From Malacoraja senta (lineage: Eukaryota): a stretch of 64,000 nucleotides of DNA. Below are positions 7,773 through 63,444 of this stretch, piece after piece. The translations under genes and the position numbers were made by a program. The stretch's first letter is position 1. The number at the start of each line of letters is the position of its first letter. The stretch is from positions 5,272,001-5,336,000 of the forward strand of contig CM075994.1 in assembly GCA_038087875.1 (NCBI GenBank), in the 5' to 3' direction. The notes under the pieces are model-generated. The model ran no database searches and was not told where the DNA came from. It worked only from the letters and a program-made list of their open reading frames with translations.

Positions 7773-7796
7773 TCAAAATGTTCAAATTTTCCAGGG
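7773..7796 (-). CDS. Micro-exon candidate, 24 nt (xLENLNIL); may instead read on to a stop at 7714 as the last coding exon (xLENLNILSNIEDGVKDFLLERTHHLT*)
   Basis: Acceptor gcatttttcag; donor TGA|gtaata at 7772, alternative donor ACG|gtaaat at 7679. Confidence 0.35.
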
Positions 7797-8834
7797 CTGA
7801 AAAATGCTTTAAGACAATTGTTTAGCTCCTCAACTAATCATTGTTGATCTTGACGATTAACGTTGGTCTTTTAGCAAAATCTGGACGATGCAGATGGGCG
7901 CACGGGTCACTTGTTACTGTCCGTATTGCCTTGGAATTATTGGTGCCGTCAAACAAACAGCACGCTGTTAATGCCATGCGCGTGTTACTCTAATATGAAA
8001 GCATTACTTCACTCCTGGTGGTGTTACTGAATATACGTATTGGCAGGACATATCTGTATGTTATGCATCCTTCTCAGATCAGGACGTGGAGGATTTCCAC
8101 CCTCTGTTCAAAATCCATTGTCTGAAATATTAACATCATCGACAATGCTGCAATGTGTTGCATCAATAAACAGCACTATTTTATATTTTGTATACGTAAT
8201 TCAGACCACCGAGTCATCGGTAACTCAAAAGCAATCCAACAAGTCAACTCATTTTTCTGTAACCAATTTTATCAGGCATGTTTATGAGCATAAAACCTCA
8301 CCCCATGCATTTTCGGATCAGACAAATTCGGCACGAGGCAGTAGCCTACTAAGTTATCCATTGGCAGCTCTGTGGGAGGACACTAGAAAATGGTGTGTAA
8401 ATCATACTTTCACAGAGCTAACGTGAAACATCTGTAAATCAGCATGGGAAGTGAGATCGAAATCTGTTTTGATGTCGTCGTGCGGCTGGGAGACAGGACG
8501 CGCCGCGCCGAACAAAGGAAGCCGCGGCGTGGGTGAAACGCTATAGGGCGGGGGAGACCAAATGAGAGTCTGGTGCGGGATACTTTGTAACTTTGTTACC
8601 GCCCTTTAACTTGGGCATGCAAAACAAAGAATATAACTGTGACATGTCACAGTAAAGATTAATTCATTCATTCGTTGATGTTTTACGTTCAAATGCTACC
8701 TTCCTTAATAAATCGGGATAGCAGTGGTTAATTTGAAATAATCAGACTCGCAAACCTTTCAACTTTGCAAATGAGAATTTACATATACTGATTATTGCCG
8801 CAAATATATATTCAAACCATCTCATATGCCACCG

Positions 8835-9300
8835 GCTTCGAAGAGGGTGCGGAAGAGGTTTACTCATGAGATTGTCTCGAACAGACTTAGATTATATTAT
8901 CTACAGGATAGGTTGGCCAAACGTGGATTGTTTTCTCTGAACTGTCAGAGGTCGAGGGGAGGCCAGACCGAAGCATCTAGAATTATGAGAGTTTAGCGAG
9001 AGTAGTAATCTGAATTATTTCCCTAAGGTGGACATGTCAAAGGCTAGAAGGCAATACTTTAGTGAGAAGAGGCACATACAAAGACGTTGGGTGAGGCAAG
9101 GTTATTAAACAGAGAGTAACGGGTGGCTGGAATGCGCTGCCAAGTGGTGTTGGAGGGAGATGCGATGGTACGTTTACGAAGGTTTTAGAAATGGGCATGG
9201 ATATACATGGATTCGAGGGATATTGATCGACCTGCATTAAGAATAGATATGTTTAACTTGGCATGATGCTTCCAACGGAACATGTGTTTCATGGCTCCAT
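8835..9300 (+). mobile_element. Old degenerate CR1 3' fragment
   Basis: Residual CR1 motifs (GAAGAGGGTGCGGAAGAGGTTTAC, GGCTAGAAGGCA, TGGAATGCGCTGCC). Confidence 0.7.
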
Positions 9301-9457
9301 GCTCGGAATAAAACAATGTCAAAATGCAAAATGCATGAATGCAATTCTGACAACATTTTACGCTCGAATATTTTAACAATAAGATTAAATATGAATATTC
9401 CATCAGATTCATAGTTTGGTTATATTTACATTGTGAACATAGTAAATTTATAATTAC

Positions 9458-9493
9458 GTGATGCTTTTAGGTCATCTTTACAGGTGGCCAATT
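9458..9493 (-). CDS. Micro-exon candidate, 36 nt, phase 1-1 (xLATCKDDLKAS)
   Basis: Acceptor tattcgttttgcag, donor CAC|gtaatt; open in phase 1. Confidence 0.55.
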
Positions 9494-10884
9494 CTGCAAA
9501 ACGAATATGGTAACATATCGTGAAATCATGCGCACCCCTTTGGTAAGCCGTTATGTTGTCCAGTACTAGAAATTCGAGGTTCCAGTTCGCCTTGAGGTAC
9601 AAAACGGAACTTCAAATGCTGGAAACTCATACAAAAGACAGACAATGCGGGAACATTCAGCAGGTCGAGCAGCTTCTGTGACAATGAGAGAAATGACGCT
9701 TCAGAAAGCTTCAGAATGAAAATCCTTCATCTGAAGTTGAAATTTAGAAAGCCATTGAAGAATGGGTAGGTGTGGAATGGATAGAATAAACTGAACGATT
9801 CCATTAGTTACGAATCAGTTTCGTTTAATGCGTCAAGCTAGTGAGAGAATAAGAACGGTACGTTGTAAAACTGTGAATTGCACATTGGAGCTAATGAAAG
9901 ATAAAGCAAAAGGAGAAGCAATCTCAGGAGAAAAGAAATACGAATTAATAATTCAAATGATCTCCGAGAAGCAGACCAATTCCGATGAATGTAAAAACAG
10001 AGAAGGAGGGTTGCCAATTGTTGCATTTGCTATGGAGACCTGATCTCCGTGGACGAGAAATGGGTGTGTTCCTCACGTTTGCAAAATGTGTCATCAACAC
10101 AAAGTAGGCGACATGTGGATCATCGTGGGTTTAGAATAGCCAATTTAGGTGAAAGACAAGTGAAAACACAATAACCATTAGATTATTTGCGAAACTGCCT
10201 CCGCAGACCCCACTGCTTTCACAGGCAGAAATGCTTGCAAGAGAGCGACACGATCAACACTTATTTATCCATTAGATAGAACGTGCGTCATAACAACCGA
10301 TTCATTAATCCTGTCCTATTAATTCACTGTATATTTCGCCAGGGGTGCTATACGTTAAAACCAAATTATTTATTCTCACTGCACAATTTCCTAGCGAGCG
10401 AATATACTTGATATCCTCAGAAACCATTTGGAATTAGACACGGAGAGCCCAATATATTTCAGTTGCCATGTCATGAGGACATTGGTCTGACAGGTTTGTA
10501 GGAAGGAACTGCGGATGCTGATTTAACCCGAAGGTATACATCTATATTACTGAAAGTAAGAGTATGGTCGCTGTTGACTCACTGCGCTGTGATTTCCGAG
10601 AAAATGCCGCCACTTACGTCCGTCATTTTTGGCCACCTCGCTCACAGCCCCCCCCCCTCCGCAGGACTGTACCGGAGTGGTTTTCCCATCGATGAAAATT
10701 GAGAGAGTTATTAATGTTCTCTCTGCTGCCCCTGCTGGTGGGAAGAGGGAGGGATTATAAAAACCGGAAGTGATGTTTTATGGAGGAAGCGAGAGTGTCA
10801 CGTCCCTCTGAGCCCTTAATAACACTGAACACATGTTTACTCAACTGTAAGTGCCCTTAATGTGGTTTTGAAATGAAAATATGG

Positions 10885-11585
10885 TTGGTTTGAAGTAAAA
10901 GGGCACTGCAAATGGTTGTTTGGGGGGTTTTGGGTTGAGGTTAAAAGGCACTGCGAAAGGGTGTTTGTGGGTTTTGGGTTGAAGTAAAAAGGTACTGCAA
11001 AGGGTCCTTTGGGGGTTTGGGGATGAAGTAAAAAGGCACTGCAAAGGGTTGTTTGGGGGTTTTGGGTTGAATTAAATAGGCACTGAAACGGGTTGTTTGG
11101 GGGGGTTTAGAGTTGAAGTTAAAAAGGTACTGCAAAAGGTTGTTTGGGGGGTTGGGTTGAAGTAACAAGGCACTGCAAAGGGTTGTTTGGTTTTTTTGGG
11201 TTGAAGTAAAAAGGCACTGCAAAGGGTTGTTTGGGGGTTTGGGGTTGAAGTAAAAAGGCACTGCAAAGGGTTGTTTGGGGGGTTTGGGTTGAAGTAAAAA
11301 GGCACTGCAAAGGGTTGTTTGGGGGTCTTTGGTTGAAGTAAAAAAAGGCACTGCAAAGGGTTGGTTGGGGGTTTTGGGTTGGTGAAAAGGCACCGCAAAG
11401 GGTTGTTTGGGGGTTTTGGGTTGAAGTGAAAATGCACTGCAAATGATTGTTTGGGGGGTTTGGGTTGAAGGAATAAGCCACTGCAAATGGTTGTTTGGGG
11501 GTTTTGGGTTGAAGTAAAAAGGCACTGCAAATTGCAGTTTGGCGGATTTGGGTTGAAGTATAAGGCACTACAAATGGTTGTTTGT
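10885..11585. repeat. 44-bp minisatellite, about 16 copies
   Basis: Unit TTGGGTTGAAGTAAAAAGGCACTGCAAAGGGTTGTTTGGGGGTT. Confidence 0.95.
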
Positions 11586-11964: not shown

Positions 11965-12470
11965 GGTGGTTTCACCCTGCTTGAAATGGTATGAAACTGC
12001 ATATGAATGTGGTGGCCTTGCACCCTGCATGAAATGGTATGAAACTGCATTAAAATGTGGTGTCGTTGCACCTTGCATGAAATGGTATGAAACTACATTT
12101 GGATTTGGTGGCCTTGCACCCTCCTTGAAATGGTATGAAGCTGCACTTGAATTTGGTGGCCTTGCACCCTGTTTGAAGTTTTATGAAACTGCACTTGAAT
12201 TTGGTGGCATTGCACCCTGCTTGAAGTGGTTGGAAACTGCACTAGAATTCGGTGGCCTTGCACCCTGCTTGAAGTGGTAGGAAACTGAACCTGAATTTGG
12301 TGGCCTTGCATCCTGCTTGAAGTGGTATGAGACTGCACATGAATTTTGAGGCCTTGCACCCTGCCGGAAGAGGTAAGAGCCTGCACTTGAATTTGATGGC
12401 CTTGCACCCTGCTTGAAATGGTAGGAAAATGGAATTGAATTTGGTGGCCTTGCACTCTGCTTGAAATGGA
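11965..12470. repeat. 48-bp minisatellite, about 10 copies
   Basis: Unit GGTGGCCTTGCACCCTGCTTGAAATGGTATGAAACTGCACTTGAATTT. Confidence 0.95.
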
Positions 12471-12920: not shown

Positions 12921-12956
12921 CTGAAGTTAGATCTTGTGCTTTGTTTGCATCACATT
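12921..12956 (-). CDS. Micro-exon candidate, 36 nt, phase 1-1 (xCDANKAQDLTS)
   Basis: Acceptor cgttttgtttgtgcag, donor CAG|gtaaca; phases 0 and 2 contain stops. Confidence 0.62.
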
Positions 12957-14225: not shown

Positions 14226-14261
14226 TCTGATGTGTTGTTGGACTGCCTTGCTTAGCATAAC
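14226..14261 (-). CDS. Micro-exon candidate, 36 nt, phase 1-1 (xYAKQGSPTTHQ)
   Basis: Acceptor ttatgtgatatctag, donor AGA|gtgact (weaker). Confidence 0.35.
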
Positions 14262-14700: not shown

Positions 14701-14727
14701 CCTTTTCTAACTTTTCCATATCATCCT
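14701..14727 (-). CDS. Micro-exon candidate, 27 nt, phase 1-1 (xDDMEKLEK)
   Basis: Acceptor tatcttgtgctttgcag, donor AGG|gtaggc; only phase 1 open; resembles 25705-25731. Confidence 0.62.
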
Positions 14728-17260: not shown

Positions 17261-17296
17261 CTGTTTCGATATACACGTCCAGCAGTGTTTGCAGTG
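17261..17296 (-). CDS. Micro-exon candidate, 36 nt, phase 1-1 (xLQTLLDVYIET)
   Basis: Acceptor tcttcatttttttcag, donor CAG|gtatta. Confidence 0.55.
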
Positions 17297-19586
17297 CTGA
17301 AAAAAATGAAGATCGGCATACTTTTAGTTGGCACTGCCACCGAAACGCATAATGCAAAACAACAAACAAAAAAAAACAAATGATATGACATGTGCGAATG
17401 ATATGATGCAGGTGGTGATGCTCCCACCTACCGCTCTCTCATAATTCACGTTGTAAGGTGTTATGAGAGCACCCGGGCACTTCAAAATGCTGCATGCCAT
17501 CTATTTGCGAGATGATGATGTGATGGTAAAAATGTATGTGCTGTGGAGTACGTGGAATGCCATTAATGAAAACGGCATGGGTGCTTTGATTTTTGAGTGT
17601 ATTGTCGGAGTTGCATAATTTCAAGTACATGGTAATACCCCATCACACATTAGACTTTCGGGTCAAGAACGATGGAAAGGTTGCAACGTTCCAGAAAGTG
17701 TATCATTGAACACAGGATGAATTTCATCTGCTCTAGTAATCCATAATTTGTGGTTTTCCTAGTTCTTTATAGCGAGTGTTGGAAACGCAATATTTATGAT
17801 AGGTTTGAACGATCGTGACACCAGAGAACACCAAAGAAAATTGGGCAGTTTATTTGTTCTTGTTCAACATGGTTCTCCTCCAGCATTGCAAGGTAAGGGG
17901 CGATTTGTCAGTGCCAACGAAGACTGAATTCATTCATCCCATTTTGATGATTTGCAAGAATGGTGCCTGCCATTTGGGATAAATTAATCGATAAGATTCC
18001 GCAAATTATTTTATTGATGGCGGCTGACAAAGGAAAAGATAATCGCACTTGTCATTCGTCTCTTCACATGCTAATGTTTGCAAACCATGCACTTATGATT
18101 CCTGGGCGTATCCCTCTAAACGTTCGTCACTCACGACTGACCCCGTCCCCATCCCCACCTACACACCTTTGTGCAACCACCATTTGATCACAACAAGTAC
18201 CTTGACAATCTTGAGAGCTTGATAAATTCAATTTTATCGCTAGCACCAATTCAAGCGAATTCCATGTAAAATCAATGTTGGGTGCTATGCTCACAGTTTA
18301 AAAACAGAAATCCTCATCAACATTTTGTCTGATGAATCTTAACAACTGCATTAATATCCCCGTTCCCTTACGCCCTTGTGTTCTAGTGCATTCTGAGAGA
18401 AGTTGCGTAAACATTTACGCAAACCAAACGCCAGCCTCATCTTGTACACATTTGCCATGGCCAATTTGTATCTACGACGTAATTGGTCATATATCATATC
18501 TTAACTATATACTTTTAAAACTCTCTGGCTGTCGTCCGTCTGTACGTCTGTACGTCTGTACGTCTGTACGTCTGTACGTCCAACGTTCTGCTTGACTTGT
18601 CCCGCCTTTGATACCGCCCCGCGCCCGCGCGGCGCGCGGAAACGCCGATATTTTTTACCGTTTCTAAAGAGGTTACGTTTATCTTTACGAATAGACGATC
18701 ATGATTAAATTTGGTCGAGTTTACGTACGCTTTTTAAAATAAAATACCTCCCCCCCCCCCAAACCAAATATTTCAAAATGTTTAAAAAAACAGCTCAGCC
18801 GTAGAATGTTAGTAAAGATTCCGTTGTGTGATGTCACAATGCACAATGGTCACAGATGTCCAATCGAAATGGACCAATTTACATATGCCTGTGCAGCAGC
18901 AACAGCACCAGCCCCTCCCCCCCACCCCGCAGCCTGCGTCGAAGGGCGTCGTCACGTGTGTGGCAATAGAGTAAGAGGATTGGGGTTGATAGGGATTGGG
19001 TAACAGATGGACTGTCCCTACCCCTCCTACTTCAACACTCCCTCCCCACTATCGCCTCTCTCTCCTCTCCCCCTCCCTCTCCTCCCACCCCCTCCCACCC
19101 CCCTTCACCACCCCTATTCACCCCCATCTCCCACCCACCCCCTTCACCTCTCTCTTGCTCCACTCCCTGCTACACCTCTGCCCCTCACTCCCCACTGTTC
19201 CCACCTCTCTCCCTCCCCCTCCCTCTCTCCCTCTCTTCCCCCTACTCCTCTCCCCTTCCCCTCATCCCCTCCCCCCTCTCCCCCCTTCCTGCCCTCCCGC
19301 TCTCCTCCCACTCCAAACTCTCCTCCCCATCCCTCTCACACACCCTGATCTCCTCTCCCTCCCCAATCTCTCCCCTTTCCTCTTCCCCCTCTCCCCTCCC
19401 TCCCCCTGTCCTCTTCTCTCCCCACCCCGTCTCCCTCTCCCCTCTTCTCTCCCCCCTCCCCCGAGTGTGTTTGGGGTGGTTAGTGTGAGTTTGGGGGGTG
19501 GTTAGTGTGAGTGTGATGCCGCAGCCCACCCATCCCCTCCCGCAAACGCGCGTTGGGTAAACAGCCCGCCAACAGTCTCTCTGTCT

Positions 19587-19801
19587 TTAAGACGGAACTG
19601 CAGATGCTGGAAAATCGAAGGTACACAAAAAAAAATGTATATCATCAGCGGGTGCAGCAGCATCTATGGATCGAAGGAAATAGGCAACGTTTCGGTAGAA
19701 AACCAGTCTGAGGATGGGCTTCGGCCCAAAGCGTTGCCTATTTCCTTCGCTCAATGGATGCTGCTGCACCCGCTGTGTTTCTCAAGCTTTTATTTGTGTA
19801 C
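19587..19801. mobile_element. Penelope-derived fold-back (inverted pLTR) insert
   Basis: Palindromic arms (GTACACAAA...CAGCGGGTGCAGCAGCATC / GATGCTGCTGCACCCGCTG...TTTGTGTAC); 14-bp TSD CAGTCTCTCTGTCT at 19573-19586 and 19802-19815. Confidence 0.8.
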
Positions 19802-21134
19802 CAGTCTCTCTGTCTCTCCCTCTCTCTCTCTCTCTCTCTGCCCTTCTCTCTTCACAGCCCGCAGCTCAACTCATGAACACCCGCTCAAACCCGCCCCCCT
19901 TCACCTATCTCCCACATCCTCTCCTTCCTCTCTCCACACCCTCCCCTCTCTCCCCCTTCCTCTCCCTCCTTCCTCTCTCCCCCTTCCTCTCCCCCCTTCT
20001 TCTCCACCTTCCTCCTCCCCCTCTTCAATTTTTTTTAATTCTAACATTAAATTTTCTCTCTCTGCCCCCCCCCTCTTGTCGCAGCTGAGAGCTGAAGGCT
20101 ATTCGTCAATGGATAGGGTGGAGATGGGATAAAAGAAGCAAATTAAAAGGGTTGTGATGAGTGTGTGTGTTTGTGGGTGCCAGATTCCCACCCCGCAACC
20201 GTGCTTTGGAGGAAAGGGGGTGGTTAGTGTGACTCAGCGGGTGCAGCAGCATCTTTGGATCGAAGGAAATAGGCAATGTTTCATAACTGAATGTTTCATA
20301 ACCCGCTGAATTTCACCACCTTTTTTGGGTGTACCAGTCTCTCTCTCTCTGCCCTTCTCTCTTCACAGCCCGCAGCTTAACTCATGAACACCAGCTCAAA
20401 ACACCCCCCTTCAACTATCTCCAAAATCCTCTCCTTACTCTCTCCACACCCTCCTCTCTATCCCCCTTCCTCGCATCCCTTCCTCTCTCCCCCTTCCTCT
20501 CCCCCCTTCCTCTCCACCCTCCTCCCTCCCCCTCTTCAATTTTTTTTAATTCTAACATTAAATTTTCACTCTCTGCCCCCCCCTCTAGACGCACCTGAGA
20601 GGTGAGGGCTATTCGTCAGTGGATAGGGTGGAGATGGGATAAAAGAAGCAAATTAAAAAATTAAGATAATATCAAGGGTTGTTATGAGTGTGTGTGTTCG
20701 TGGGTGACAGATTCCCACCCCGCAACCGTGCTTTGGAGCACAGGGGGTGGTTACGACACAGCACCCCCCCCCCCACCCGCAAACGCACGTTCGGTGTCCA
20801 GACCCAACGGGTCTGCACTTGGTCTAGTAACTATTAAAACTCTCGTTGGTTTGTTGGTTTGTAACGGGTTCTATTTCGCGATAATTCTTTTATTTACTCC
20901 TCCACCCTTTGCCGTAACGGAGATATTTTTACATATTCCTGTGGAGTTTTTCCTCCTCCCCGCTTTTTTAAAAGTAAAAAACATCAAAATATTCTAAAAT
21001 CATGCTGCTGCATGAGTCACAAGGCCATCTTACAGATGTCCAATCATAATGGATTGCATTTACATATGATATGACGGGTGTGGGAGATTGGAACCTTCAC
21101 ATGGTCAAATAAGAGCAAATAGAGCAAGTTGTCC

Positions 21135-23140
21135 TAACCCCCTTCCTATCTACCCCTTCCCTCTCCCACCTCTTCCATCTTCACCCCTTCACTCCCCCTC
21201 CCCCCTCCACCTCTACCCATCCACTCCCCATTCCCCTCCACCTCTACCCCTCCTACCCTCCCCTCCTCTCCACCCTCCCCTCTCCTGCATCCCATCCTCT
21301 TCGCTCCCCCTTCCACCTCCCCTCCTCTTCTCTCCCGCGTCCAACTCTCCCTCTTCTCTCTCCCTGCCCTCTCCTCACCCCCTCACTTGCCCACCTCCTC
21401 TCTCCTCACTCTCCCCTCTACACTCTCTCCCCTCTACTCTCTTTCCCCTCTACTCTCTCTCCCGTCTACACTATTTATCTCTCCCTTCTACTCTCTCTCT
21501 TCCCTCTCTCTCTCTCTTCCCTCCCTCCCTCCCTCCCTTCCACCCCGTCCTTTCCACCTTTGCCCCTTTCTCTCTCCCCCCTTCTATCTCCCCACTTCTC
21601 TCCCCCCTTCTCACCCCCTTCCCACCCCCGCTCCTTTCTCACCCTCCTCTCTCTCTCCCTCCTCTCTCACCCCCTCTTCTCTCTCCCCCTCCACTCTCTC
21701 CTTCTCCTCTCCCCCTCCAATCTCTCACTACTCCCGTCTCCCCCTCCAACACCCCTGTCTCCTCTCTCCTCTCTACCTCCCCCTCCCCCACTCTACCCCC
21801 TCCCCTCTAACCCCCTCCCCTCTAACCCCTCCACTCCCACACCTTCCACCTATTATTCTCCTCCCCATCTCCTCCCTCCCCTCTCGTTCACCCCTCTCCA
21901 CCATCCACTACCCCCCTCCACATCTACCCCTCTTCTTCTCTCCCCCTGCACCGCTACCCCTCCACCTATCCCCCAAATCCCCTCCTCCACTTCACTTCCC
22001 TCCAACTCTCCCCCCTCCCCTCTACTCCCCTCCTCCTCACACCCACTCCTCTCCCCCCTCTACTCTCTCTCTCCCCCCTCTCTCTCTCTCCCTCTAATGT
22101 TTCTTTCTCCCCTCTAATCTCTCTCTCCCCTCTAATCTCTCGCTCCCCTTCTCTCTCTCCCCCCTTATCTCTCTCCCCCTTCTCCATCTCCCGGTTCTCG
22201 CCCCCTCTTTCACTCGCCCTCCTCTCTCACCCCACTCCACTCTCTCCTTCTCCTCCCTCTCCCCTTCCAATCTCTCTTCAGCTCTCCTCTCTCCATCTAT
22301 TCTCCCCCATCTCCCCTCCACCATCCCCTCCCCTCCACACACTCTCTCCTTCGCCCTCTCCTCAAGCACCCCACTCATCTTCCCTCCACCCATTCCCCTC
22401 TCTTCTCCCCTCCACTTCCCCTCCCCCACCTTTCTCTACCCCCGCACCCTCCCCTCTCTCCCCCTCCCCCTCTAGTAACCCCCTACCCCCCCTACCCCTG
22501 TCTCCCCTTCACCCTACCCGCTCTCCTCCCCTCCCTGATCCTCAACCCCTCTCTCTCCCTACCCCCTCCCCCTTCCCTACACACTCCTCCGCTACCCACT
22601 CTCTCTCCCCCCTCTCCCCCTCTCCTCTCTCTTCCCCATCTCTCCGCCTTCCATATTTTCCTCTCCCCTGTCCTCACCCCTCTCTCCCCACCCCTCCCTC
22701 ATCACCCCTCTCCTCACCCCTCTCTCCTCACCCCTCTCCCCATCTCCTCCCTTTCTCCCTCCTCCACTCCCTCCCCACTTACTCCCTCCCCCTCTCCCCA
22801 TCCTTCTCTCTCACCCCTCCCCCGACCCATCCCCACCTCCCTCCCCACTTTCTCCCTCTCCCACTCCCCGACCCAACTCTCCCCCTTCCCCTCTCCCTTC
22901 CCCCTATCACTCTCCCCTTCCCCATCCCCCGCTCTCTCCCTTCCCCCCATCACCCCTTCCCCCCCTCCCCTCCCCCTCTCTCCTCCTCTCCTCGCCCCCT
23001 CTCTCCTCACCCTTTCCCCCCCTCACAATATCCCCCTCTCCTCACCCCTCTCCCCATCTCCTCCCCCTCCTCCCTCCCCTCTGCCCTATCCCCATCTCCT
23101 CCTCCTTCCTCTCTCCCCGTCCTCCTTCCTCCCTCCTCCT
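21135..23140 (+). repeat. About 2-kb polypyrimidine (C/T) low-complexity tract; a shorter one lies at 19015-19465
   Basis: Almost all C/T on the + strand; explains the Pro/Ser/Leu and Gly/Glu/Arg pseudo-ORFs. Confidence 0.95.
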
Positions 23141-24014: not shown

Positions 24015-25460
24015 TGTGATGTAACTAAAGTGAAGGGGCAAATGTGATGTTATTAAAGTGAAGGGCGAGATGTGATGTATATGACATTTAACATGTAATG
24101 TAATATGTAATGTAAATGCCAGTTCCCCTTGAGGCCAAAGGCAGAAGCTGGCGAATTTACCCGTGCTTCGTGACTGAGGTCAAGCGACCTTCTTGAAGTT
24201 TCAGTTGATTATAGATTAAACTAATCCTACAAGATGTCGGACGTGTATCATTGTGCTAGTCACCACAAGTCTAAAGGACGACTTTGCATGGTGTTAGAGT
24301 AAAACAATTGGAGAAACTCAATCCACCCGGCCATTCTCCAGGCAAGAAGAAGCATGAGAGACTGTGAGCTGAAAAATAAGAACAAGAAAAAGAAATGTCG
24401 GAACGGGAAGCAAGAGGGCAAGGAAAACACGTGGGGCAATAAGTGTCACGCAAGAGCGCAGCTGGAAACTAGAAACCTAACCAGCAGGACATCGACGGTG
24501 TCAACTTAATTGGAACGTTTTCCAGGACTGTGCAGCCGCCTCCGACTTAGGGTGAGTTCCACGGCCGTGTAGCTCACGGGCAGTCTCTGTAGCCGCCACC
24601 GACGTCGGGTAAGGGCCTAGTACCGTGTAGCCCACGGACAGGTCCCGCGACTGCCACCGAAGACGGCCAAGTCTCCAGCCGGCCGGGAGCAGCCGTGTTC
24701 GAGAGATTCAAGGAGCCTTGCGGAGCGCGCAGCACGGCCCGAGCAACAGTTTAAAGACACTGGGGGTCAAATGCAGAGAAGGTAAGAAGCCAAGAAGTAC
24801 AGATAATTTGCCGAAAATTCTAATGCAAAGAAGTAAAATTCAAGAAGTGAAGAAGTAAAAGTTAAGAAGCCAAGAGTTATTATGCAAGAAATTGAATGAA
24901 CGAATATAGTTTGTATTAACCATTTAGTATTCACTGTCTAAGTTGTTTTTGAAGGCGAAGTCCGCCTCCTGAATGCAACAAGTCTACGAGACCAGGCGGA
25001 GAGTAAGTTCAGGATAGAGACGTCTAGTCCAGGTTAGAGTCCTGTAGCCCAGAATAGAGACCTGTAGCCCAGGATAAAGACATATAGCCGTGGATAGACC
25101 CCTGTGTAGCCGTGGATAGACCCCTGTGCAGCCGTGGATGGACCCCTATGTAGCCGTGGATAGGCTACCTGTAGCCAGACGCCCAGATGTGAGAAACTTA
25201 GACAGAGGAGCCAGTCTCCCAGAGGTTAGAAACCTGGACAGTGGAGCCAGTCTCCCAGAAGCAAGAAATAGCCTCCCAGAAGGGGCAATTCCCCAGAAGA
25301 CACGATGCGCCGAGATGCAGCGAGAGGCAGGAGCCAGTCTCCAGTCGCAACAACGGGCAACGAGACATTGCCCCTTATTTAACTTGAACCATGTACCGTG
25401 CGAATATAATCCCATCAACACAAAATGTGTTTTCTTCGAAACTATGATTATTTAAAATAT
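24015..25460 (+). mobile_element. Truncated or non-autonomous LTR element: LTR about 24071-24288, tRNA-Leu-like PBS, repeat-rich non-coding interior
   Basis: TGTGATG...TTGCA followed directly by TGGTGTTAGAGT; preceded by purine tract AAAGTGAAGGGCGAGA; ATTAAA inside; no 3' LTR seen. Confidence 0.55.
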
Positions 25461-25704: not shown

Positions 25705-25731
25705 CATTTTCTGTTCTTCGCAACTTGTCCT
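25705..25731 (-). CDS. Micro-exon candidate, 27 nt, phase 1-1 (xDKLRRTEN)
   Basis: Acceptor gcatttaacttatag, donor ATG|gtaaac; similar to 14701-14727. Confidence 0.6.
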
Positions 25732-25864: not shown

Positions 25865-25891
25865 CAGAATCATCCAATGATCGCATGGTAT
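25865..25891 (-). CDS. Micro-exon candidate, 27 nt, phase 1-1 (xTMRSLDDS)
   Basis: Acceptor tttatcccctacccataag, donor CTG|gtaaag. Confidence 0.5.
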
Positions 25892-26734: not shown

Positions 26735-26761
26735 CTGTGGATATGTTCGACCATTCCGATT
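26735..26761 (-). CDS. Micro-exon candidate, 27 nt, phase 1-1 (xSEWSNIST)
   Basis: Acceptor cacgtttccttgtag, donor CAG|gtaaac. Confidence 0.62.
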
Positions 26762-27929: not shown

Positions 27930-27938
27930 ACATCTTAC

Positions 27939-27965
27939 CAGAACGTCGTAAAATTGCTTCCGCAT
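27939..27965 (-). CDS. Micro-exon candidate, 27 nt, phase 1-1 (xAEAILRRS)
   Basis: Acceptor actcatccattcacag, donor CTG|gtaaga. Confidence 0.62.
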
Positions 27966-28397: not shown

Positions 28398-28412
28398 CTT
28401 CTTCCGGAGTCG
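28398..28412 (-). CDS. Micro-exon candidate, 15 nt, phase 1-1 (xTPEE)
   Basis: Acceptor gactttactttgcag, donor AAG|gtacgt. Confidence 0.55.
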
Positions 28413-31163: not shown

Positions 31164-31186
31164 TAATCCAACATGTAATCGCATAC

Positions 31187-31207
31187 CCCTTTTTAGTCTT
31201 CTTGGTA
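31187..31207 (-). CDS. Micro-exon candidate, 21 nt, phase 1-1 (xPRRLKR)
   Basis: Very strong acceptor tttatgtttctcctttgcag, donor GGG|gtatgc. Confidence 0.62.
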
Positions 31208-33781: not shown

Positions 33782-33808
33782 TTCCTCAGGAGATCACTTG
33801 AGGGTTCA
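33782..33808 (-). pseudogene. 27-nt micro-exon paralog with an in-frame TGA in phase 1 (xNPQVIS*G)
   Basis: Acceptor atgcaccctctag; donor flank AA|gtacgaattggaaattg nearly identical to that of 35015-35041. Confidence 0.4.
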
Positions 33809-35014: not shown

Positions 35015-35041
35015 TTGCATTGATCCACTCTGGCGGAATCT
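35015..35041 (-). CDS. Micro-exon candidate, 27 nt, phase 1-1 (xIPPEWINA)
   Basis: Acceptor gcctggtttccaatag, donor CAA|gtacga; IPxE shared with 46630-46659. Confidence 0.55.
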
Positions 35042-36315: not shown

Positions 36316-36342
36316 TTAAAACGTTGAATAGTCTCTGAAAAT
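36316..36342 (-). CDS. Micro-exon candidate, 27 nt, phase 1-1 (xFQRLFNVL)
   Basis: Acceptor tttaattatttttcag, donor TAA|gtaagt. Confidence 0.55.
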   Translation of the reverse strand: MFRDYSTF

Positions 36343-44786: not shown

Positions 44787-44822
44787 CTGATTGGCCGCCA
44801 ACAGATTTCTTTTCTCTTGGAA
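44787..44822 (-). CDS. Micro-exon candidate, 36 nt, phase 1-1 (xPREKKSVGGQS)
   Basis: Acceptor tgttttaacattacag, donor CAG|gtatat. Confidence 0.55.
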
Positions 44823-45394: not shown

Positions 45395-46629
45395 CGATGC
45401 CATTTCGTTCAGTCTTATCGTTGAATTCCAAGGGTGCCACCTTCAATATAGAGTCATTGTGTGATAGAGCGTGGAAAATAACATTTCGGCCCAACCTACC
45501 CGCTGAGTCACCATACCTCATCGCTACTAATCTCTCCCTGCCTGCGTTTGGCCCATATACTTCCAAACCTATGCTACCCGTGTAAGTCTCCACGTGTATT
45601 TTAACACACGATAAAGCAATTGCGTGAAGACTTCATAATGTTCTGGCGCTGAACGTTAGGGCTTACCCTGACAACCTCGTGATTTTTTACACACCTTACA
45701 TTTGCCTTTCCCGACTTATCTTAACTTCAATGCATACATTATTGTATTCTCTGAGATGATCAATATGATATAAGTTATACGTTGTTACCTCGTGTGCTCA
45801 TTTTAACGACGGTATTCCTTTCTCCTTTCCAATCTTCAACTTGACTTGATTTCGTGTTTCGGCCAATCGGTGGTCCAATATATTTATCCTCATCCATAAT
45901 AGATCTTGCAATACAGAAAAATACGATATGGTTATATTTTATATATTTATATCTTGTAAAACTCTTCTTAAACTAGTCATAGCATTGACATTTTTATCTT
46001 ATAATTACGAGCACTTGATTAGATAAGAGCTGACGTTCCTGCAAGCATTGTCATAGTTATTTTATGATGACTGTGGTACCTTTAATAAGCGGTCACAATT
46101 TATTGCTAACATCGAAATTAAAACCGGAGACCTGGGGGGTTGCAGACTCTAGAATACTGATCGACAATTGAAAGGGTGGAAGAACTCCGCGGCTTAGGCA
46201 GCATCTGTGGAAGAGTCAAAATTAAAAGCAGACGCATCTGCGATGGGAAATGGACGTTCGACCTTCTGGTTGTGACCTTCGTTAGGCTAACGAGGGGACC
46301 CGTATTGAAGCGACGTATGTCCATTCCCGTCCGCAGTTGGATTGATCCAGCACATTTTTTATACATGAATATTCCAGCTTCTGCAGCCTCTTGTTCCTGC
46401 AGGAACGCAAGTAAGCCACACGGACCAACGGGCATTTCCTGCCATTTATGTTACAGATCAACTGCGAATTTCCGGTCACGTATGAGGCCCTTTAATCCTC
46501 TCCTTATCACGAATCTAAAACAATAAAATATTCTCTTTCCACCTCGTTCTAAATAAGGAAATTTGGATCATTTACAGATTTCCTAATGGCGGAGGACGTG
46601 ATTGCCTTATCTATGAAATAAAGATGTAC

Positions 46630-46659
46630 GCTTATTTACGAACAGTTCGGACGGTATTT
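46630..46659 (-). CDS. Micro-exon candidate, 30 nt, phase 1-1 (xIPSELFVNK)
   Basis: Very strong acceptor ttctgttttattttgttccag, donor AGC|gtacat (weaker). Confidence 0.5.
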
Positions 46660-46837: not shown

Positions 46838-46870
46838 CAGCCACTCCACGCCTTATAATATGTTTGCTTA
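46838..46870 (-). CDS. Micro-exon candidate, 33 nt, phase 1-1 (xSKHIIRRGVA)
   Basis: Donor CTG|gtgagg is strong; acceptor catcgtgtacggtag is weak. Confidence 0.3.
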
Positions 46871-54084: not shown

Positions 54085-54108
54085 TGCTTTCCGCTTTCAG
54101 TCTAATTT
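54085..54108 (-). CDS. Micro-exon candidate, 24 nt, phase 1-1 (xIRLKAES)
   Basis: Donor GCA|gtgagt; acceptor tatttgtgtaagcag; only phase 1 open. Confidence 0.45.
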
Positions 54109-61051: not shown

Positions 61052-61178
61052 CTTGTCGTCCTAAGTCTCTACAAGTTAACGTGGTTGGGTCAAAGCCGTC
61101 TGAGGAACAGGCCGGGATAATACAAAGTGCAGTGCCAATTTCAAATATACATACAATGTTCTTCTGGCTCTTAAACAT
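61052..61178 (-). CDS. Putative first coding exon (exon 61183-61052): signal-peptide-like MFKSQKNIVCIFEIGTALCIIPACSS then DGFDPTTLTCRDLGRQ, ending in phase 1
   Basis: Acceptor attcttatgcttccattag, donor AAG|gtcagt; only one frame open; basic N-region, hydrophobic core, small residues before a plausible cleavage site. Confidence 0.55.
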
Positions 61179-61753
61179 AAGATCTAATGGAAGCATAAGA
61201 ATACGGATTGCTTTCATTGTGAGGAAAAAAAACCCTCTCTGAATGCCAATATAATGGCCTGTGTCATGAAGAGATTAGTAGACGTTGTTTTGCAAGCAGT
61301 AAATATATTTTTCCGAAAGGAAGTTTTTCTTTACAGAAATAAAGATGACACTCATGGCCAGAATGATTGTGTCATCAATGTTCTTATCTCTAAACTGCTC
61401 AGACAGATACATTTTGACATTGTTTTCCAATGTTTGTACTTTTGCAATTTTGATGTGACAAAAATAGATAATTACAAATAAAGCACTCACAAAATTGTGG
61501 CCACGTGTGTCGTATTTATTGTTCAATCATTTCTGCCGGGAAGGAGGGGGGGGGTGGGTAGATAATGTGTAATATCCCCTTCCTTCATACTCCATTTAAT
61601 GAACATTATGTCTAATTTTAAAATGAAAAAATATCTATGATGATGACTTGAACTGCCTCGCAAATAAGGTCAAACTATAGGGAATACACAGATTTACAAT
61701 TCCCCCCATCCTCCAGATATCTAAATTATGTTGTTAAGAATCTATTCATCGAT

Positions 61754-62076
61754 GGGCGGCACTGTGGCGCATATGTAGAGTTGCATCCTTGCAGCGTTTA
61801 AAGCGCCAATGAGCCGATTTTTATCACGACTACAGGTGCTATCTGTACATAATTTGTTCATTCTCCCCGTGACTGCGTGGGTTTTCACCGAGATCTCAGT
61901 TCTCCTTCCACACTCCAAGCACGTAGAGATTTGCACGTTAATTGGCTTTGTGTAGGTGTACATTGTCCATAGTTTTTGTAGAGTTGTGTTAGTCTGCGGG
62001 GTTCGATGGTCCGTGCGGTGTCTGTGGGCCGAATGGCCTGTTTCTGCGATGCATCTTAAATTCAACTAAAGTAAAA
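61754..62076 (+). mobile_element. tRNA-derived V-SINE (HE1-like)
   Basis: GGGCGGCACTGTGGCGCA head; TTCTCCCCGTGACTGCGTGGGTTTTC V-domain; GGGCCGAATGGCCTGTTTC tail shared with CR1 family B. Confidence 0.85.
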
Positions 62077-62230
62077 TGTGGATTTACAACAAAGTAATGT
62101 AATTGTCTTGGAATAAATTGCACATGGTAGTTTAAATCGAATTTAGTCACAAAATACTGGAGTAGCTCAACGGGACAGGCAGCATCTCTGGAGATAAGGA
62201 ATGGGTGACGTTTAGGTTCGAGACCCTTCA

Positions 62231-62263
62231 GTCTGAAGAAGTGTCTCGATTCGAAACGTCACC
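62231..62263 (+). ncRNA. Minimal hammerhead-ribozyme-like motif in a Penelope pLTR (degenerate)
   Basis: CTGAAGA-A-[GTGTCTCGATTC]-GAAA-CG-TC; core boxes intact, stem II mismatched relative to the family consensus GGGTCTCGACCC. Confidence 0.5.
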
Positions 62264-63398
62264 CATTCATTCTCTCAATGTATGTTGCCTGTCCCACCGA
62301 GTTACTACAGCATTTTGTGTCTACGTTTAATTTAATTGTCTTCTGGATTTATAAACAGAGCAAAATTCATTTATATTTCAAAATTTCTTCCTCATTAGTT
62401 TAACGGTTAAAATATTATAGCTGACAGACAGAAGACCCATACGCGAGATGCCTTGCTGTTTCAACATATAAGTAATCACCTTCGTCATTGTTAGATAATT
62501 TCATTTTACCAGATTGAATATCGTGTTCATTTCAGCTCGATCGATGGAGTGACATTATATTGGATATCGAATAAACTTAATTGCTAAAATATGTACTAAT
62601 ATGTGCTTGGAGTCTGGAAGGAGAATCGTGAAGGGGATAAAGGGAACAAATAAAATATCGACGTCTTTACCCGTTGTCCGAATTAAATAGAAATGTTGAA
62701 TTGTTGTGGTTGCTGAATGTTATTGTCACATAATGTGTCCATTGGCTTCCATTAATTATTTTACCCGAAATCTCTACAGTCCTTTGTACCTAGTGGCACT
62801 TCGATAAACCGAAAAGTTTGTCAAATCAGTGCTTTGCCATTTCCCAAGTTCATCCATTATAATTGACATTTATTAATCGTCCAGTGGTTGCCAACTTATT
62901 ATTGGAAGGAATCAAACGATTAAATTAATTAATGTCGAATTAATGTGATTGAATAAACAGTTTATTTTATGCAAACGTAAAATTATATATATATGACGTA
63001 AACCCTAATGTTTCCAACGATATTATGTTTTTGTTCTCCAAATATCAAGCTTCACGATTATTGCATTCTTAACATACAAGCTTCCATCTGAGTATTTTAC
63101 GGAATGCCGCAAGATCTGATGCAGTGGGGTCAATTCGCGCATTTAACAGCTTGGAAAGTTAAGTCGAGATGTCAACTGAAGTACGCCATTTAATTGCAAT
63201 AGAAACGTCACAGTTGATGAACAGTTTCATTTGGGTCTAACTTCAAACATAAATTAATTCAAGAGCACCTATTGTGTCCAAGTTCATCACCTCGTTCTAA
63301 TTTGATCAAGAGGACTTTTGCTGGTTCCTATTGGAAGCTGTCACCCTTCTAAAAGGTATTTGTAATCCCGCCATGTATTAGAGAGAAATGTCACTCAC

Positions 63399-63444
63399 CT
63401 CTGGGTGAAATCTTTTTAAGACTGACTTGCGGTGAGCACTCAGT
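63399..63444 (-). other. 46-nt exon candidate, probably 5' UTR (or a phase 0-1 coding exon TECSPQVSLKKISPR)
   Basis: Strong acceptor tgttttcttgtttgcag and consensus donor GAG|gtgagt; contains no ATG. Confidence 0.6.

What the first reader, a model, noticed from the sequence alone, without database searches (positions are those of the whole stretch)
7773..63444. Hidden minus-strand micro-exon gene: about 20 symmetric phase-1 exons of mostly 27 and 36 nt spread over 56 kb
Seen: AG...GT-bounded segments in the unique DNA. Eight are exactly 27 nt (14701, 25705, 25865, 26735, 27939, 33782, 35015, 36316), five are 36 nt (9458, 12921, 14226, 17261, 44787), and others are 15, 21, 24, 24, 30 and 33 nt. 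All are on the minus strand and multiples of 3. All but one are open in phase 1, and several (12921, 14701, 54085) are open only in phase 1. Joined in order without 33782 they read with no stop: MFKSQKNIVCIFEIGTALCIIPACSSDGFDPTTLTCRDLGRQ-EIRLKAES-ISKHIIRRGVA-EIPSELFVNK-LPREKKSVGGQS-DFQRLFNVL-KIPPEWINA-IPRRLKR-ATPEE-DAEAILRRS-ESEWSNIST-DTMRSLDDS-EDKLRRTEN-ALQTLLDVYIET-EDDMEKLEK-GYAKQGSPTTHQ-KCDANKAQDLTS-ELATCKDDLKAS-PLENLNIL. Known: signal peptide plus many symmetric micro-exons is the layout of schistosome micro-exon genes; vertebrate genes with runs of tiny phase-1 exons include triadin, tropoelastin and butyrophilin/BG. I recognise none of these in the peptide (no Gly-X-Y, Ig or B30.2). Inference: an unannotated, fast-evolving secreted protein that could be varied by in-frame exon skipping. 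ORF scans cannot see it. Exons were picked by eye, so some are probably false and others missed.
Basis: partly seen in the sequence, partly recalled or inferred. Interest (0 to 1): 0.92.

Follow-up and report, generated by a model that had tools for sequence, protein, structure and literature searches.

The report
Giant gene built from micro-exons
This stretch of an animal genome hides what is very probably a real gene whose protein is stitched together from many tiny 27- and 36-base exons scattered over more than 140,000 bases, but it is not the secreted protein first proposed, and whether it is expressed and what it does remain unknown.

Summary
Partly confirmed. The AG...GT segments exist as listed, but by-eye picking proves little: chance gives about 90 in-frame open candidates per strand. 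Two paralogous loci supplied the test. Window-ascertained minus-strand candidates that are multiples of 9 nt and open in phase 1 are retained 15 of 15, against 44 of 128 for all others. Fourteen of 16 supported exons are multiples of 9 nt. The peptides share a register-specific acidic/hydrophobic/basic pattern.

The 'signal-peptide exon 1' fails: its ATG, open frame and GT donor are window-specific. A different start exon (45789-45897) is intact in all three copies and has no signal sequence. Exons 33782, 35015, 14226 and 7773 are probably false; 54085 and 46838 lie upstream of the start codon.

The array runs at least 100 kb beyond the window, and a second cluster lies about 90 kb upstream. 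There are no RNA data and no homologues; function is unknown. Best reading: a fast-evolving, three-copy family encoding a charged helical repeat protein. Earlier scan notes describe similar gene layouts in other genomes, none on look-alike DNA.

The parts
45789..45897 (-). Probable first coding exon: ATG at 45897, 36 codons plus 1 base (ends in phase 1), donor GAG|gtaaca, usable acceptor 7 nt upstream of the ATG; peptide begins MDEDKY, no signal sequence
   Evidence: ATG, acceptor, donor, 109-nt length and open frame intact in window, paralogue and third copy; exon vs flank divergence 7.3 vs 15.7%, 12.8 vs 24.6%, 11.9 vs 21.6%
44787..44822 (-). 36-nt phase-1 micro-exon
   Evidence: 0 of 36 differences from the paralogue, splice sites kept
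36316..36342 (-). 27-nt phase-1 micro-exon
   Evidence: AG/GT and frame kept in the paralogue, 4 differences
31187..31207 (-). 21-nt phase-1 micro-exon (21 + 15 with the next exon = 36)
   Evidence: acceptor score 7.2; 1 difference; peptide unchanged in the paralogue
28398..28412 (-). 15-nt phase-1 micro-exon
   Evidence: identical in the paralogue; splice sites kept and in frame in the third copy
27939..27965 (-). 27-nt phase-1 micro-exon
   Evidence: the 8 full codons unchanged in the paralogue (2 base differences, one in the split first codon); in frame with splice sites in the third copy
26735..26761 (-). 27-nt phase-1 micro-exon
   Evidence: splice sites and frame kept in all three copies
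25865..25891 (-). 27-nt phase-1 micro-exon, the weakest of the supported set
   Evidence: open only in phase 1; kept in the paralogue with 5 differences; weak acceptor (taag); 1-nt deletion in the third copy
25705..25731 (-). 27-nt phase-1 micro-exon
   Evidence: AG/GT kept in all three copies; 1 difference from the third copy although the upstream flank has diverged
17261..17296 (-). 36-nt phase-1 micro-exon
   Evidence: 1 synonymous difference from the paralogue, splice sites kept
14701..14727 (-). 27-nt phase-1 micro-exon, open only in phase 1
   Evidence: identical in the paralogue
12921..12956 (-). 36-nt phase-1 micro-exon, open only in phase 1
   Evidence: 3 synonymous and 1 non-synonymous differences from the paralogue; 2-nt insertion in the third copy
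9458..9493 (-). 36-nt phase-1 micro-exon, open only in phase 1; same module type as the exon at -52577
   Evidence: 2 synonymous and 2 conservative changes in the paralogue
46630..46659 (-). Uncertain: conserved 30-nt segment upstream of the start codon (possible 5'UTR exon)
   Evidence: 1 of 30 differences, acceptor score 7.5, weak donor -5.0
63399..63444 (-). Uncertain: 46-nt non-coding segment with strong splice sites (possible 5'UTR exon)
   Evidence: acceptor 7.8 and donor 7.7; both sites kept in the paralogue; 9 of 46 bases differ
61052..61183 (-).
   Evidence: ATG, open frame and GT donor are window-specific; paralogue and outgroup copy share the non-functional states
54085..54108 (-).
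   Evidence: 6 of 24 bases differ from the paralogue; acceptor score -3.8
46838..46870 (-).
   Evidence: 1-nt deletion in the paralogue; acceptor score -2.6
35015..35041 (-).
   Evidence: 15-nt deletion removes the donor in the paralogue; shares a 19-nt local repeat with 33782
33782..33808 (-).
   Evidence: scores -6.5 and -0.5; both splice sites absent in the paralogue
14226..14261 (-).
   Evidence: scores -1.7 and -1.5; both splice sites absent in the paralogue
7773..7796 (-).
   Evidence: donor score -4.8; both splice sites absent in the paralogue

Best explanation
The window holds the 5' third of a very long, transposon-bloated protein-coding gene on the minus strand ('gene B'). Translation most likely starts at the ATG at window 45897, in a 109-nt exon that ends in phase 1. 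It continues through a chain of phase-1-symmetric micro-exons: 12 supported in the window and at least 4 more supported, plus about 9 candidates, down to -99.6 kb. The 3' end was not reached. Almost every exon is one structural module of 9 or 12 residues. The first residue is acidic and split across the intron (last base G, then A). The 12-residue module is hydrophobic at positions 2, 5 and 9 and basic at position 6; the 9-residue module is hydrophobic at position 4. One 12-mer plus one 9-mer makes 21 residues, that is three heptads. I infer that the product is a soluble, highly charged, amphipathic alpha-helical (coiled-coil-like) rod with no signal peptide or membrane segment. The gene belongs to a family of three collinear copies: the window, contig C4876, and C18 about 430-500 kb away in inverted orientation. 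The third copy carries frameshifts. A further cluster of the same modules lies about 90 kb upstream. Because every module exon is frame-symmetric, exons can be gained, lost or skipped without breaking the frame, so length variation is mechanistically easy. Shown: exon integrity, frame, module pattern and family structure. Inferred: helical rod. Untested: expression, splicing variants, function.
For: (1) Strand asymmetry when both paralogues must pass the splice thresholds: in the window, 11 in-frame phase-1-open candidates on the minus strand (10 independent) against 1 on the plus strand; over 264 kb, 43 against 7 candidates and 16 against 1 in-frame and phase-1-open. (2) Non-circular retention test: candidates chosen on the window copy only (minus strand, multiple of 9 nt, open in phase 1) keep AG, GT and exact length in the paralogue in 15 of 15 cases, against 44 of 128 for all others, Fisher p = 5e-7; the same class on the plus strand scores 0 of 5. 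Twelve of the 15 are module exons. (3) Neutral expectation from the same alignment (0.143 substitutions and 0.011 indel events per nt): keeping all 50 splice nucleotides and the ATG with no indel in 460 exonic nt has p about 1.7e-6, or 1.5e-3 if only one lineage drifted. (4) 14 of 16 supported exons are multiples of 9 nt, p = 1.2e-5 given multiples of 3. (5) Exons differ at 9.3% of positions against a 14.3% background (p = 0.001). In phase 1, pS = 0.144 (equal to the intron rate), pN = 0.081, pN/pS = 0.56, against 1.51 and 1.47 in the two control phases. A conservation peak covers the exons and the first 10 intron bases. (6) Register-specific residue pattern: p <= 2e-4 (36-nt class) and 0.004 (27-nt class) against within-peptide shuffles; a profile from the paralogue-supported exons predicts the flank candidates, p = 2e-4 and 0.007. 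(7) The start exon is intact in all three copies, half as diverged as its flanks, and ends in the phase the array needs. (8) Joined in a script, both the window and the paralogue give 186 codons from ATG with 0 stops and 158 of 186 identical residues.
Against: No RNA evidence of any kind could be obtained. Constraint on the peptide is weak: 12.5 synonymous against 25.5 non-synonymous changes is not by itself significantly different from neutral (about 8 synonymous expected). For the six exons with an outgroup, lineage-specific change in exons equals that in nearby introns (window 5.1 vs 5.3%, paralogue 5.7 vs 4.8%). The start exon has pN/pS of 0.43 to 1.05. The third copy has frameshifts in 2 of 6 compared micro-exons. 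No homologue was found for any contiguous piece. The 3' end, promoter and UTRs are unknown. The splice matrices are approximate values recalled by me. I picked the flank candidates (set B) from score lists, a few of them on charged composition, though not on residue positions. The 3.5-residue periodicity is only marginal (0.51 against a shuffle 95th percentile of 0.46).
Confidence: 0.7

Rival explanations
1. One reading: a secreted, schistosome-MEG-like protein that starts with a signal-peptide exon at 61052-61183 and ends near 7773.
For: The 132-nt segment is open, starts with ATG followed by a partly hydrophobic stretch, and has a good donor in the window (score 4.3). A 46-nt segment with strong splice sites lies just upstream.
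Against: The third copy is the outgroup (12.6% against 21.3% and 20.6% over 2447 sites). It and the paralogue both lack the ATG, both carry the extra base that closes the frame, and both have GA at the donor, so these features arose only in the window lineage. That block shows no constraint in the window lineage (24 window-specific against 17 paralogue-specific changes). Two of the next three exons of the model (54085, 46838) fail the paralogue test. A conserved ATG exon lies downstream at 45789-45897.
Confidence: 0.06
2. A decaying relic: the array was once a gene, but all copies are now unexpressed pseudogenes whose exons survive only because the duplications are recent.
For: Peptide-level constraint is weak; the third copy has frameshifts; no homologue or annotation was found.
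Against: 15 of 15 retention of splice sites and length, against 34% for other candidates. The probability of an intact frame and intact splice sites is about 1.5e-3 even if only one lineage drifted. Both younger copies keep a 186-codon open frame from ATG. The start exon is half as diverged as its flanks in all three comparisons.
Confidence: 0.12
3. The cytoplasmic tail of a BG/butyrophilin-type receptor: the micro-exons follow signal, Ig-V and transmembrane exons that lie outside the region examined.
For: The architecture resembles the chicken BG tail of 13-36 exons of 21 or 24 nt encoding heptads (PMC4046983, passages read). It is a multigene family on a small contig rich in B30.2/SPRY exons. 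The hydrophobic spacing is compatible with heptads.
Against: A conserved ATG exon without a hydrophobic segment directly precedes the array, and read from its acceptor in phase 1 it hits a stop, so it cannot be an internal coding exon (sequence; my reading). No V-set, Ig, PRY or SPRY match appeared in any of the minus-strand ORFs scanned in the 264 kb (300, out of 477 of at least 70 aa) or in 134 plus-strand ORFs of at least 105 aa. Exon sizes are 27 and 36 nt, not 21 or 24. The nearest scored SPRY exons are 0.6-0.8 Mb away on the wrong strand.
Confidence: 0.04
4. Conserved exons of a long non-coding RNA, or splicing decoy/recursive sites, with no protein product.
For: Nucleotide conservation in the start exon is not clearly biased towards synonymous sites; peptide constraint is weak.
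Against: Non-coding exons have no reason to be multiples of 9 nt (14 of 16), to stay open in one phase only, to keep their length exactly, or to show a register-specific residue pattern and pS > pN in only that phase.
Confidence: 0.05
5. Chance AG...GT pairs picked by eye; there is no gene.
For: At loose thresholds chance gives about 90 in-frame open candidates per strand, and the plus strand has more than the minus strand (103 against 91). Bare AG...GT pairs conserved in both copies are equally common on the two strands.
Against: All the strand-specific, length, retention and pattern tests listed under the best explanation.
Confidence: 0.03

Closest known systems
Chicken BG genes (butyrophilin family): cytoplasmic tail of 13-36 exons of 21 or 24 nt encoding heptad repeats (PMC4046983, passages read)
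   Same: A long run of tiny frame-symmetric exons with split codons, each encoding one unit of a charged helical repeat. A multigene family with copy-to-copy differences. Located on a small chromosome or contig rich in B30.2 genes.
   Different: Module sizes are 9 and 12 residues (27 and 36 nt), not 7 or 8. Introns are kilobases to tens of kilobases and full of transposons. There are no signal, Ig-V or TM exons; a soluble-type ATG exon directly precedes the array. No sequence similarity was tested.
Schistosome micro-exon genes (MEGs): short symmetric exons of 3-81 bp separated by long introns, encoding secreted proteins (abstract of PMC10526429 in the listing)
   Same: Most of the known coding sequence lies in symmetric micro-exons separated by much longer introns. 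Fast-evolving multigene family. Missed by ORF-based annotation.
   Different: No signal peptide. The host genome looks vertebrate-type, judging by its transposons (inference). Introns are far longer than the 5 kb quoted for MEGs. The product is a regular charged repeat. Alternative splicing is untested.
Non-fibrillar and transmembrane collagen genes (my recollection, not checked in a call): exons of 27, 36, 45 and 54 nt that begin with a split glycine codon
   Same: Exon lengths are multiples of 9 nt, introns are phase 1 with G as the last exon base, and the genes are very long.
   Different: No Gly-X-Y: 5 glycines in 186 residues. The split first codon encodes Asp or Glu, not Gly.
Triadin luminal domain and the titin PEVK region (my recollection, not checked in a call): charged repeats encoded by runs of small symmetric exons
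   Same: Charged, low-complexity repeat modules, one per small exon; exon skipping varies the length.
   Different: Different module lengths and composition; no membrane anchor here; no homology tested.

Membership tests
Schistosome micro-exon genes (MEG) | Most of the coding sequence lies in short frame-symmetric exons separated by much longer introns | tested here: met
   16 supported exons of 15-36 nt, all multiples of 3 and phase 1, following a 109-nt start exon; introns about 0.1 to more than 30 kb
Schistosome micro-exon genes (MEG) | N-terminal signal peptide; secreted product | tested here: not met
Schistosome micro-exon genes (MEG) | Protein variants produced by alternative splicing of the micro-exons | not testable with these tools
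   No RNA run was available
Schistosome micro-exon genes (MEG) | Sequence relationship to a described MEG family | not tested
   Only contiguous pieces could be searched, and none found relatives
Avian BG / butyrophilin family | Signal exon, Ig-V exon and TM exon upstream of the small-exon tail | tested here: not met
   No V-set, Ig or hydrophobic exon on the minus strand in the 264 kb; the ATG exon directly precedes the array. The genome-wide V-set search was uninformative: no C18 hit among the 150 scored of 1517 candidates
Avian BG / butyrophilin family | Tail exons of 21 (24) nt, one heptad each | tested here: not met
   Supported exon sizes are 27 (8 exons), 36 (5), and 18, 21 and 15 (1 each); hydrophobic positions 2, 5, 9 and 4 are compatible with heptads only across a 36 + 27 pair
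Avian BG / butyrophilin family | Multigene family in a B30.2-rich region | tested here: met
   Three collinear copies; many SPRY exons on C18
Collagens with exons in multiples of 9 nt and phase-1 introns | Exon length a multiple of 9 nt with a split first codon | tested here: met
   14 of 16 supported exons
Collagens with exons in multiples of 9 nt and phase-1 introns | Gly-X-Y triplet repeats | tested here: not met
   5 Gly in 186 residues; the first residue of the modules is Asp or Glu

The most novel reading that the evidence does not exclude
A lineage-specific family of giant genes whose entire coding sequence, apart from the start exon, is an array of 9- and 12-codon micro-exons (length rule: multiples of 9 nt). 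It encodes a soluble, heptad-compatible charged rod, and selection acts mainly on splice signals, exon length and residue register and only weakly on exact sequence. Exon number and usage would then be the evolving trait, as in avian BG tails, but in a protein without any receptor domain and at an intron scale (exons about 0.4% of the locus) not described for such arrays.
Probability: 0.3. Interest if true: 0.72.

Novelty: new variant of a known kind. Interest (0 to 1): 0.6.

Why it matters
If it is expressed, this is an extreme gene design for a vertebrate-type genome: at least 17, and probably more than 30, coding exons of 15-36 nt (plus a 109-nt start exon) spread over at least 146 kb of transposon-rich DNA, with exon length quantised in units of 9 nt. 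Standard gene finders and ORF scans cannot see such genes, so whole families may be missing from annotations.

It also gives a clean case in which selection preserves splice signals, exon length and residue register while the sequence itself drifts. That makes it directly testable how modular repeat proteins grow and shrink by exon gain, loss or skipping. Its position on a small contig rich in B30.2 genes, and the three-copy family structure, suggest (but do not show) an immune or reproductive role.

Tried and rejected
RNA evidence: the look-up of sequencing runs (kind rna, window 25401-35400) listed no RNA holder, only two runs of unknown kind that hold 71% and 39% of the words of a mostly intronic stretch. 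I take these to be DNA.

Protein homology on contiguous pieces:
- phmmer of the 36-aa start exon against 1.84 billion representatives: 1 hit, a 414-aa repeat protein that matches only through a recurring short motif. I judged it spurious.
- ESM Atlas: nothing informative.
- The joined peptide was not handed to any search tool, so homology of the whole product is untested.

Pfam: 30 window ORFs, 300 minus-strand ORFs out of 477 of at least 70 aa in the 264 kb (for two of the three frames only ORFs of at least 90 aa were sent, and 27 of those were left out) and 134 plus-strand ORFs of at least 105 aa. All gave only transposon domains, plus one weak BTB match (E = 5.8e-5) that has no relative among solved structures.

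Other searches:
- Rfam over the 264 kb: no family.
- Genome-wide SPRY and V-set searches: none of the 150 scored hits in each lies near the locus on the right strand, but only 150 of 696 and 150 of 1517 candidates were scored.
- The upstream cluster shares only dispersed repeats with the main array, so it is not a recent tandem copy.
- Exon-to-exon DNA similarity: nothing beyond 10-12-nt words, except the 33782/35015 local repeat.
- Literature: three searches for this layout found no gene with 27/36-nt phase-1 coiled-coil exons; the fourth was for the MEG definition only.
- Earlier scan notes: nothing on this genome, and no look-alike by sequence.

A first version of my candidate scan used thresholds that were too strict and found almost nothing. 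Bare AG...GT conservation without splice scoring shows no strand difference.

Full report
WHAT WAS CLAIMED AND WHAT IS IN THE SEQUENCE.

It joined them into a protein that begins with a signal peptide at 61052-61183. All segments given with coordinates are where stated, with AG before and GT after them. I located the others at 54085, 46838, 46630, 31187, 28398 and 7773.

I scored the sites with simple acceptor and donor weight matrices whose values I recalled, so they are approximate. On that scale 8 of 13 acceptors and 9 of 13 donors fall in the top 10% of all AG or GT sites in the window.

IS IT MORE THAN CHANCE, ON THE WINDOW ALONE?

Only weakly. At thresholds loose enough to admit nearly all claimed exons, the minus strand has 91 in-frame phase-1-open candidates of 9-60 nt. 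The plus strand has 103, and twenty block-wise dinucleotide shuffles give 89 +/- 13.

For the 27/36-nt class, the counts for minus strand, plus strand and shuffles are 10, 6 and 5.0 +/- 1.8 at medium thresholds, 7, 2 and 2.9 +/- 1.8 at stricter ones, and 3, 0 and 0.2 +/- 0.4 at strict ones. A chain of 20 open segments could therefore be assembled by eye from noise. Independent evidence was needed.

PARALOGUES PROVIDE THAT EVIDENCE.

The window is G000:C18:5272001-5336000 in a 1.94-Gb assembly. The whole locus, introns included, is collinear with contig C4876. In a 45.6-kb chain of alignments the two differ by 14.3% substitutions and 0.011 indel events per base.

A third, more diverged copy lies on C18 at about 5.74-5.78 Mb in inverted orientation. 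Over 2447 three-way aligned sites the distances are 12.6% (window to paralogue), 21.3% (window to third) and 20.6% (paralogue to third). The third copy is therefore the outgroup.

RESULTS, EXON BY EXON.

In the third copy all 6 exons I could compare keep AG and GT. Four stay in frame (28398, 27939, 26735, 25705). Two carry frameshifting indels (25865 and 12921), so that copy is probably decaying.

- 33782 and 14226 lose both splice sites.
- 35015 loses its donor in a 15-nt deletion, and it shares a local repeat with 33782.
- 7773 loses both splice sites.
- 46838 has a 1-nt deletion.
- 54085 differs at 6 of 24 bases.

(a) Requiring both copies to pass the same splice thresholds leaves 11 in-frame phase-1-open candidates on the minus strand of the window (10 independent) and 1 on the plus strand. 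Over 264 kb (C18:5172001-5436000) the counts are 43 against 7 candidates, and 16 against 1 in-frame and phase-1-open.

(b) In a test with no circularity, I chose candidates from the window copy alone: minus strand, thresholds -0.5 and 0, length a multiple of 9, open in phase 1. All 15 of 15 keep AG, GT and exact length in the paralogue. All other candidates do so in 44 of 128 cases (Fisher p = 5e-7), and the same class on the plus strand does so in 0 of 5. Twelve of the 15 are module exons. Three (109602, 80745, -12471) look like bystanders in repeat-derived DNA.

(c) Using the neutral rates measured in the same alignment, I asked how likely it is that 12 such exons plus the start exon keep all 50 splice nucleotides and the ATG and suffer no indel. 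The probability is about 1.7e-6. It is still 1.5e-3 if only the paralogue lineage drifted. Leaving out the start exon, which I found through its conservation, my hand calculation from the same rates gives about 1e-5 and 4e-3.

(d) Of the 16 supported exons (12 in the window, 4 downstream), 14 are multiples of 9 nt, p = 1.2e-5 given multiples of 3. The two exceptions, 21 and 15 nt, are neighbours and add up to 36.

(e) The exons differ from the paralogue at 42 of 450 positions (9.3%), against a 14.3% background (p = 0.001). There is a conservation peak over the exons and the first 10 intron bases (7-9%), against 13-17% beyond 60 nt.

(f) Read in phase 1, the synonymous rate (0.144) equals the intron rate and the non-synonymous rate is 0.081, giving pN/pS = 0.56. 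The same bases read in phases 0 and 2 give 1.51 and 1.47.

RESULTS AGAINST STRONG PROTEIN-LEVEL CONSTRAINT.

The split of 12.5 synonymous to 25.5 non-synonymous changes is not significant on its own; about 8 synonymous changes would be expected under neutrality.

For the six exons with an outgroup, lineage-specific change in exons equals that in neighbouring introns: window 8 of 158 against 109 of 2040, paralogue 9 of 158 against 97 of 2040.

Selection is therefore visible mainly on splice signals, exon length and frame, and only weakly on the exact residues.

THE 'SIGNAL-PEPTIDE EXON' IS NOT ANCESTRAL.

At 61052-61183 the paralogue and the outgroup copy agree with each other against the window at each critical feature:
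- The start codon reads AGG and GGG where the window has ATG.
- Both carry one extra base that closes the frame shortly afterwards.
- Both read GA where the window has the GT donor.

By parsimony these three features arose in the window lineage. That block also shows no slowdown in the window lineage: 24 window-specific changes against 17 paralogue-specific ones. It is a chance ORF, or at most a young, possibly untranslated, exon.

A BETTER START.

I scanned for ATG-initiated frames that end in phase 1 at a donor. Among 126 candidates between 44.8 and 112 kb, exactly one outside transposon sequence is intact in both copies: 45789-45897. Its peptide begins MDEDKY.

Its ATG, an acceptor 7 nt upstream, the GAG|GTAA donor, the 109-nt length and the open frame are present in the window, at C4876:26847-26954 and at C18:5750673-5750780. 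These are the only three copies in the genome. The exon is about half as diverged as its 100-nt flanks in all three comparisons: 7.3 vs 15.7%, 12.8 vs 24.6% and 11.9 vs 21.6%. Its pN/pS is 0.43 to 1.05.

It ends in phase 1 about 1 kb upstream of exon 44787, which is the phase the array requires. Read from its acceptor in phase 1 it runs into a stop (my reading of the sequence), so it cannot be an internal coding exon.

Joined inside a script, the start exon plus the 16 supported micro-exons give 186 codons from ATG without a stop in both the window and the paralogue, with 158 of 186 residues identical. The product is 43% charged (24% Asp+Glu, 19% Lys+Arg). Its maximum 19-residue hydropathy is -0.04, so it has no signal or membrane segment.

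They are 5'UTR exons or false; I cannot tell which.

THE ARRAY IS FAR LARGER THAN THE WINDOW.

Paralogue-supported phase-1 micro-exons continue downstream, at these window coordinates:

| Window coordinate | Size | Locus coordinates |
|---|---|---|
| -43718 | 27 nt | L025:6282-6308 |
| -46323 | 18 nt | L025:3677-3694 |
| -52577 | 36 nt | L026:7423-7458 |
| -53616 | 27 nt | L026:6384-6410 |

My fetched part of C4876 ends there. On single-sequence evidence, strong candidates of the same kind run on to -99.6 kb. A dense cluster of them also lies at +151 to +162 kb (L019, L020).

Candidates that are multiples of 9 nt and open in phase 1 number 38 on the minus strand against 16 on the plus strand, and 21 against 6 at stricter thresholds. 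Among in-frame open candidates, 39 of 141 on the minus strand are at least half K/E/D/R/Q, against 8 of 107 on the plus strand.

The upstream cluster shares only dispersed repeats with the main array. Because the start exon cannot be internal, the cluster probably belongs to a separate upstream gene of the same module type. Gene B therefore spans at least 146 kb (45.9 kb to -99.6 kb), and its end was not reached.

THE MODULES.

In the 36-nt class (14 peptides) position 1 is acidic in 71%, positions 2, 5 and 9 are hydrophobic in 79, 79 and 71%, and position 6 is basic in 79%. In the 27-nt class (15 peptides) position 1 is acidic in 93% and position 4 is hydrophobic in 80%.

Against shuffles within each peptide this pattern has p <= 2e-4 for the 36-nt class and p = 0.004 for the 27-nt class. 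A profile made only from the paralogue-supported exons predicts the register of the flank candidates, with p = 2e-4 and 0.007. I picked the flank candidates from score lists, a few of them on composition but none on residue position.

Spacings of 3 and 4 between hydrophobic positions, and 12 + 9 = 21 residues (three heptads), fit an amphipathic helix or coiled coil. However, the global 3.5-residue periodicity is only marginal (0.51 against a shuffle 95th percentile of 0.46). The helical-rod reading is an inference.

SURROUNDINGS.

Both strands of the 264 kb carry only transposon ORFs (LINE reverse transcriptase and endonuclease, esterase-type ORF1, Gypsy-type polyprotein, Tc1-type transposase), plus one weak BTB-like ORF. 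There is no Rfam family.

Contig C18 is rich in B30.2/SPRY exons. None of the 150 scored hits (of 696 candidates) is close to the locus on the right strand. The V-set search was uninformative.

COMPARISON WITH KNOWN SYSTEMS.

The closest functional analogue is the cytoplasmic tail of chicken BG genes: 13-36 exons of 21 or 24 nt, each one heptad, in a rapidly changing multigene family (PMC4046983, passages read). This locus is not a BG member. It has no signal, Ig-V or TM exons, and its exon sizes differ.

It shares the micro-exon layout of schistosome MEGs (abstract of PMC10526429 in the listing), but it fails their defining signal peptide.

It obeys the multiple-of-9, phase-1 exon rule of non-fibrillar collagens (my recollection), but it has no Gly-X-Y.

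Three literature searches for this layout found no gene with 27/36-nt phase-1 coiled-coil exons. No search of a contiguous piece found a relative. These negatives are weak: the pieces are short, and the joined product could not be searched.

VERDICT.

The locus is best filed as a new variant of the known 'repeat protein built from symmetric micro-exons' design. Its function, its expression and its full extent remain open.

Earlier notes of this scan describe micro-exon genes in other genomes, none on this genome and none alike in sequence. They did not influence my reading.

Noticed in passing
L019:7539 to L020:6502 (window coordinates +151,539 to +160,502), minus strand: A dense second cluster of 27/36-nt phase-1 candidates with the same residue register (about 9 in 11 kb, introns about 0.5-1.5 kb), separated from the main array by about 90 kb of transposons. 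Probably the 3' part of another gene of the same module family.
   Followed up: partly
G000:C18 at 4.56, 6.53-6.55, 9.8-10.8 and 11.63 Mb, and many small contigs: Very large expansion of B30.2/SPRY exons: 696 first-look candidates, 150 scored, all above the Pfam cut-off, 28 of them on C18. The contig looks like an immune-type gene-family chromosome.
   Followed up: no
window 19204-23118: About 4 kb of C/T-rich low-complexity DNA (GC skew -0.6) made of many imperfect short tandem repeats, inside the intron between exons 25705 and 17261. It is largely absent from the paralogue alignment.
   Followed up: no
window 10885-11584 and 11973-12469: Two intronic minisatellites: 44-nt unit x 16 copies and 48-nt unit x 10 copies, each with 84% matches.
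   Followed up: no
window coordinates +74.2 to +76.5 kb and +80.4 to +82.6 kb (L012, L013); also -35.3 to -32.6 kb and -42.7 to -40.0 kb (L024, L025): Local tandem duplications in C18: each pair matches one and the same stretch of C4876, so the duplications happened after the window and paralogue copies split.
   Followed up: no
L018:255-677, minus strand (window about +134.3 kb): 141-aa ORF with a weak BTB/POZ match (E = 5.8e-5) and no relative among solved structures. It may be a neighbouring gene fragment or a pseudogene.
   Followed up: partly
window 33782-33808 and 35015-35041: These two rejected 'exons' share a 19-nt stretch across their donor ends, so they are copies of a local repeat and not independent exons.
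   Followed up: yes
window 63399-63444, minus strand: A 46-nt segment with very strong acceptor and donor (7.8 and 7.7), both kept in the paralogue, although 9 of its 46 bases differ. Not a multiple of 3. Possibly a 5'UTR exon of the gene.
   Followed up: partly
L011:3304-5943 (-), L019:2350-5493 (+), L021:3049-5616 (+): Long, nearly intact transposon ORFs: an 880-aa LINE reverse-transcriptase ORF and Gypsy-type polyprotein ORFs of 1048 aa and 319 + 536 aa. This suggests recent transposon activity inside the introns of this locus.
   Followed up: no
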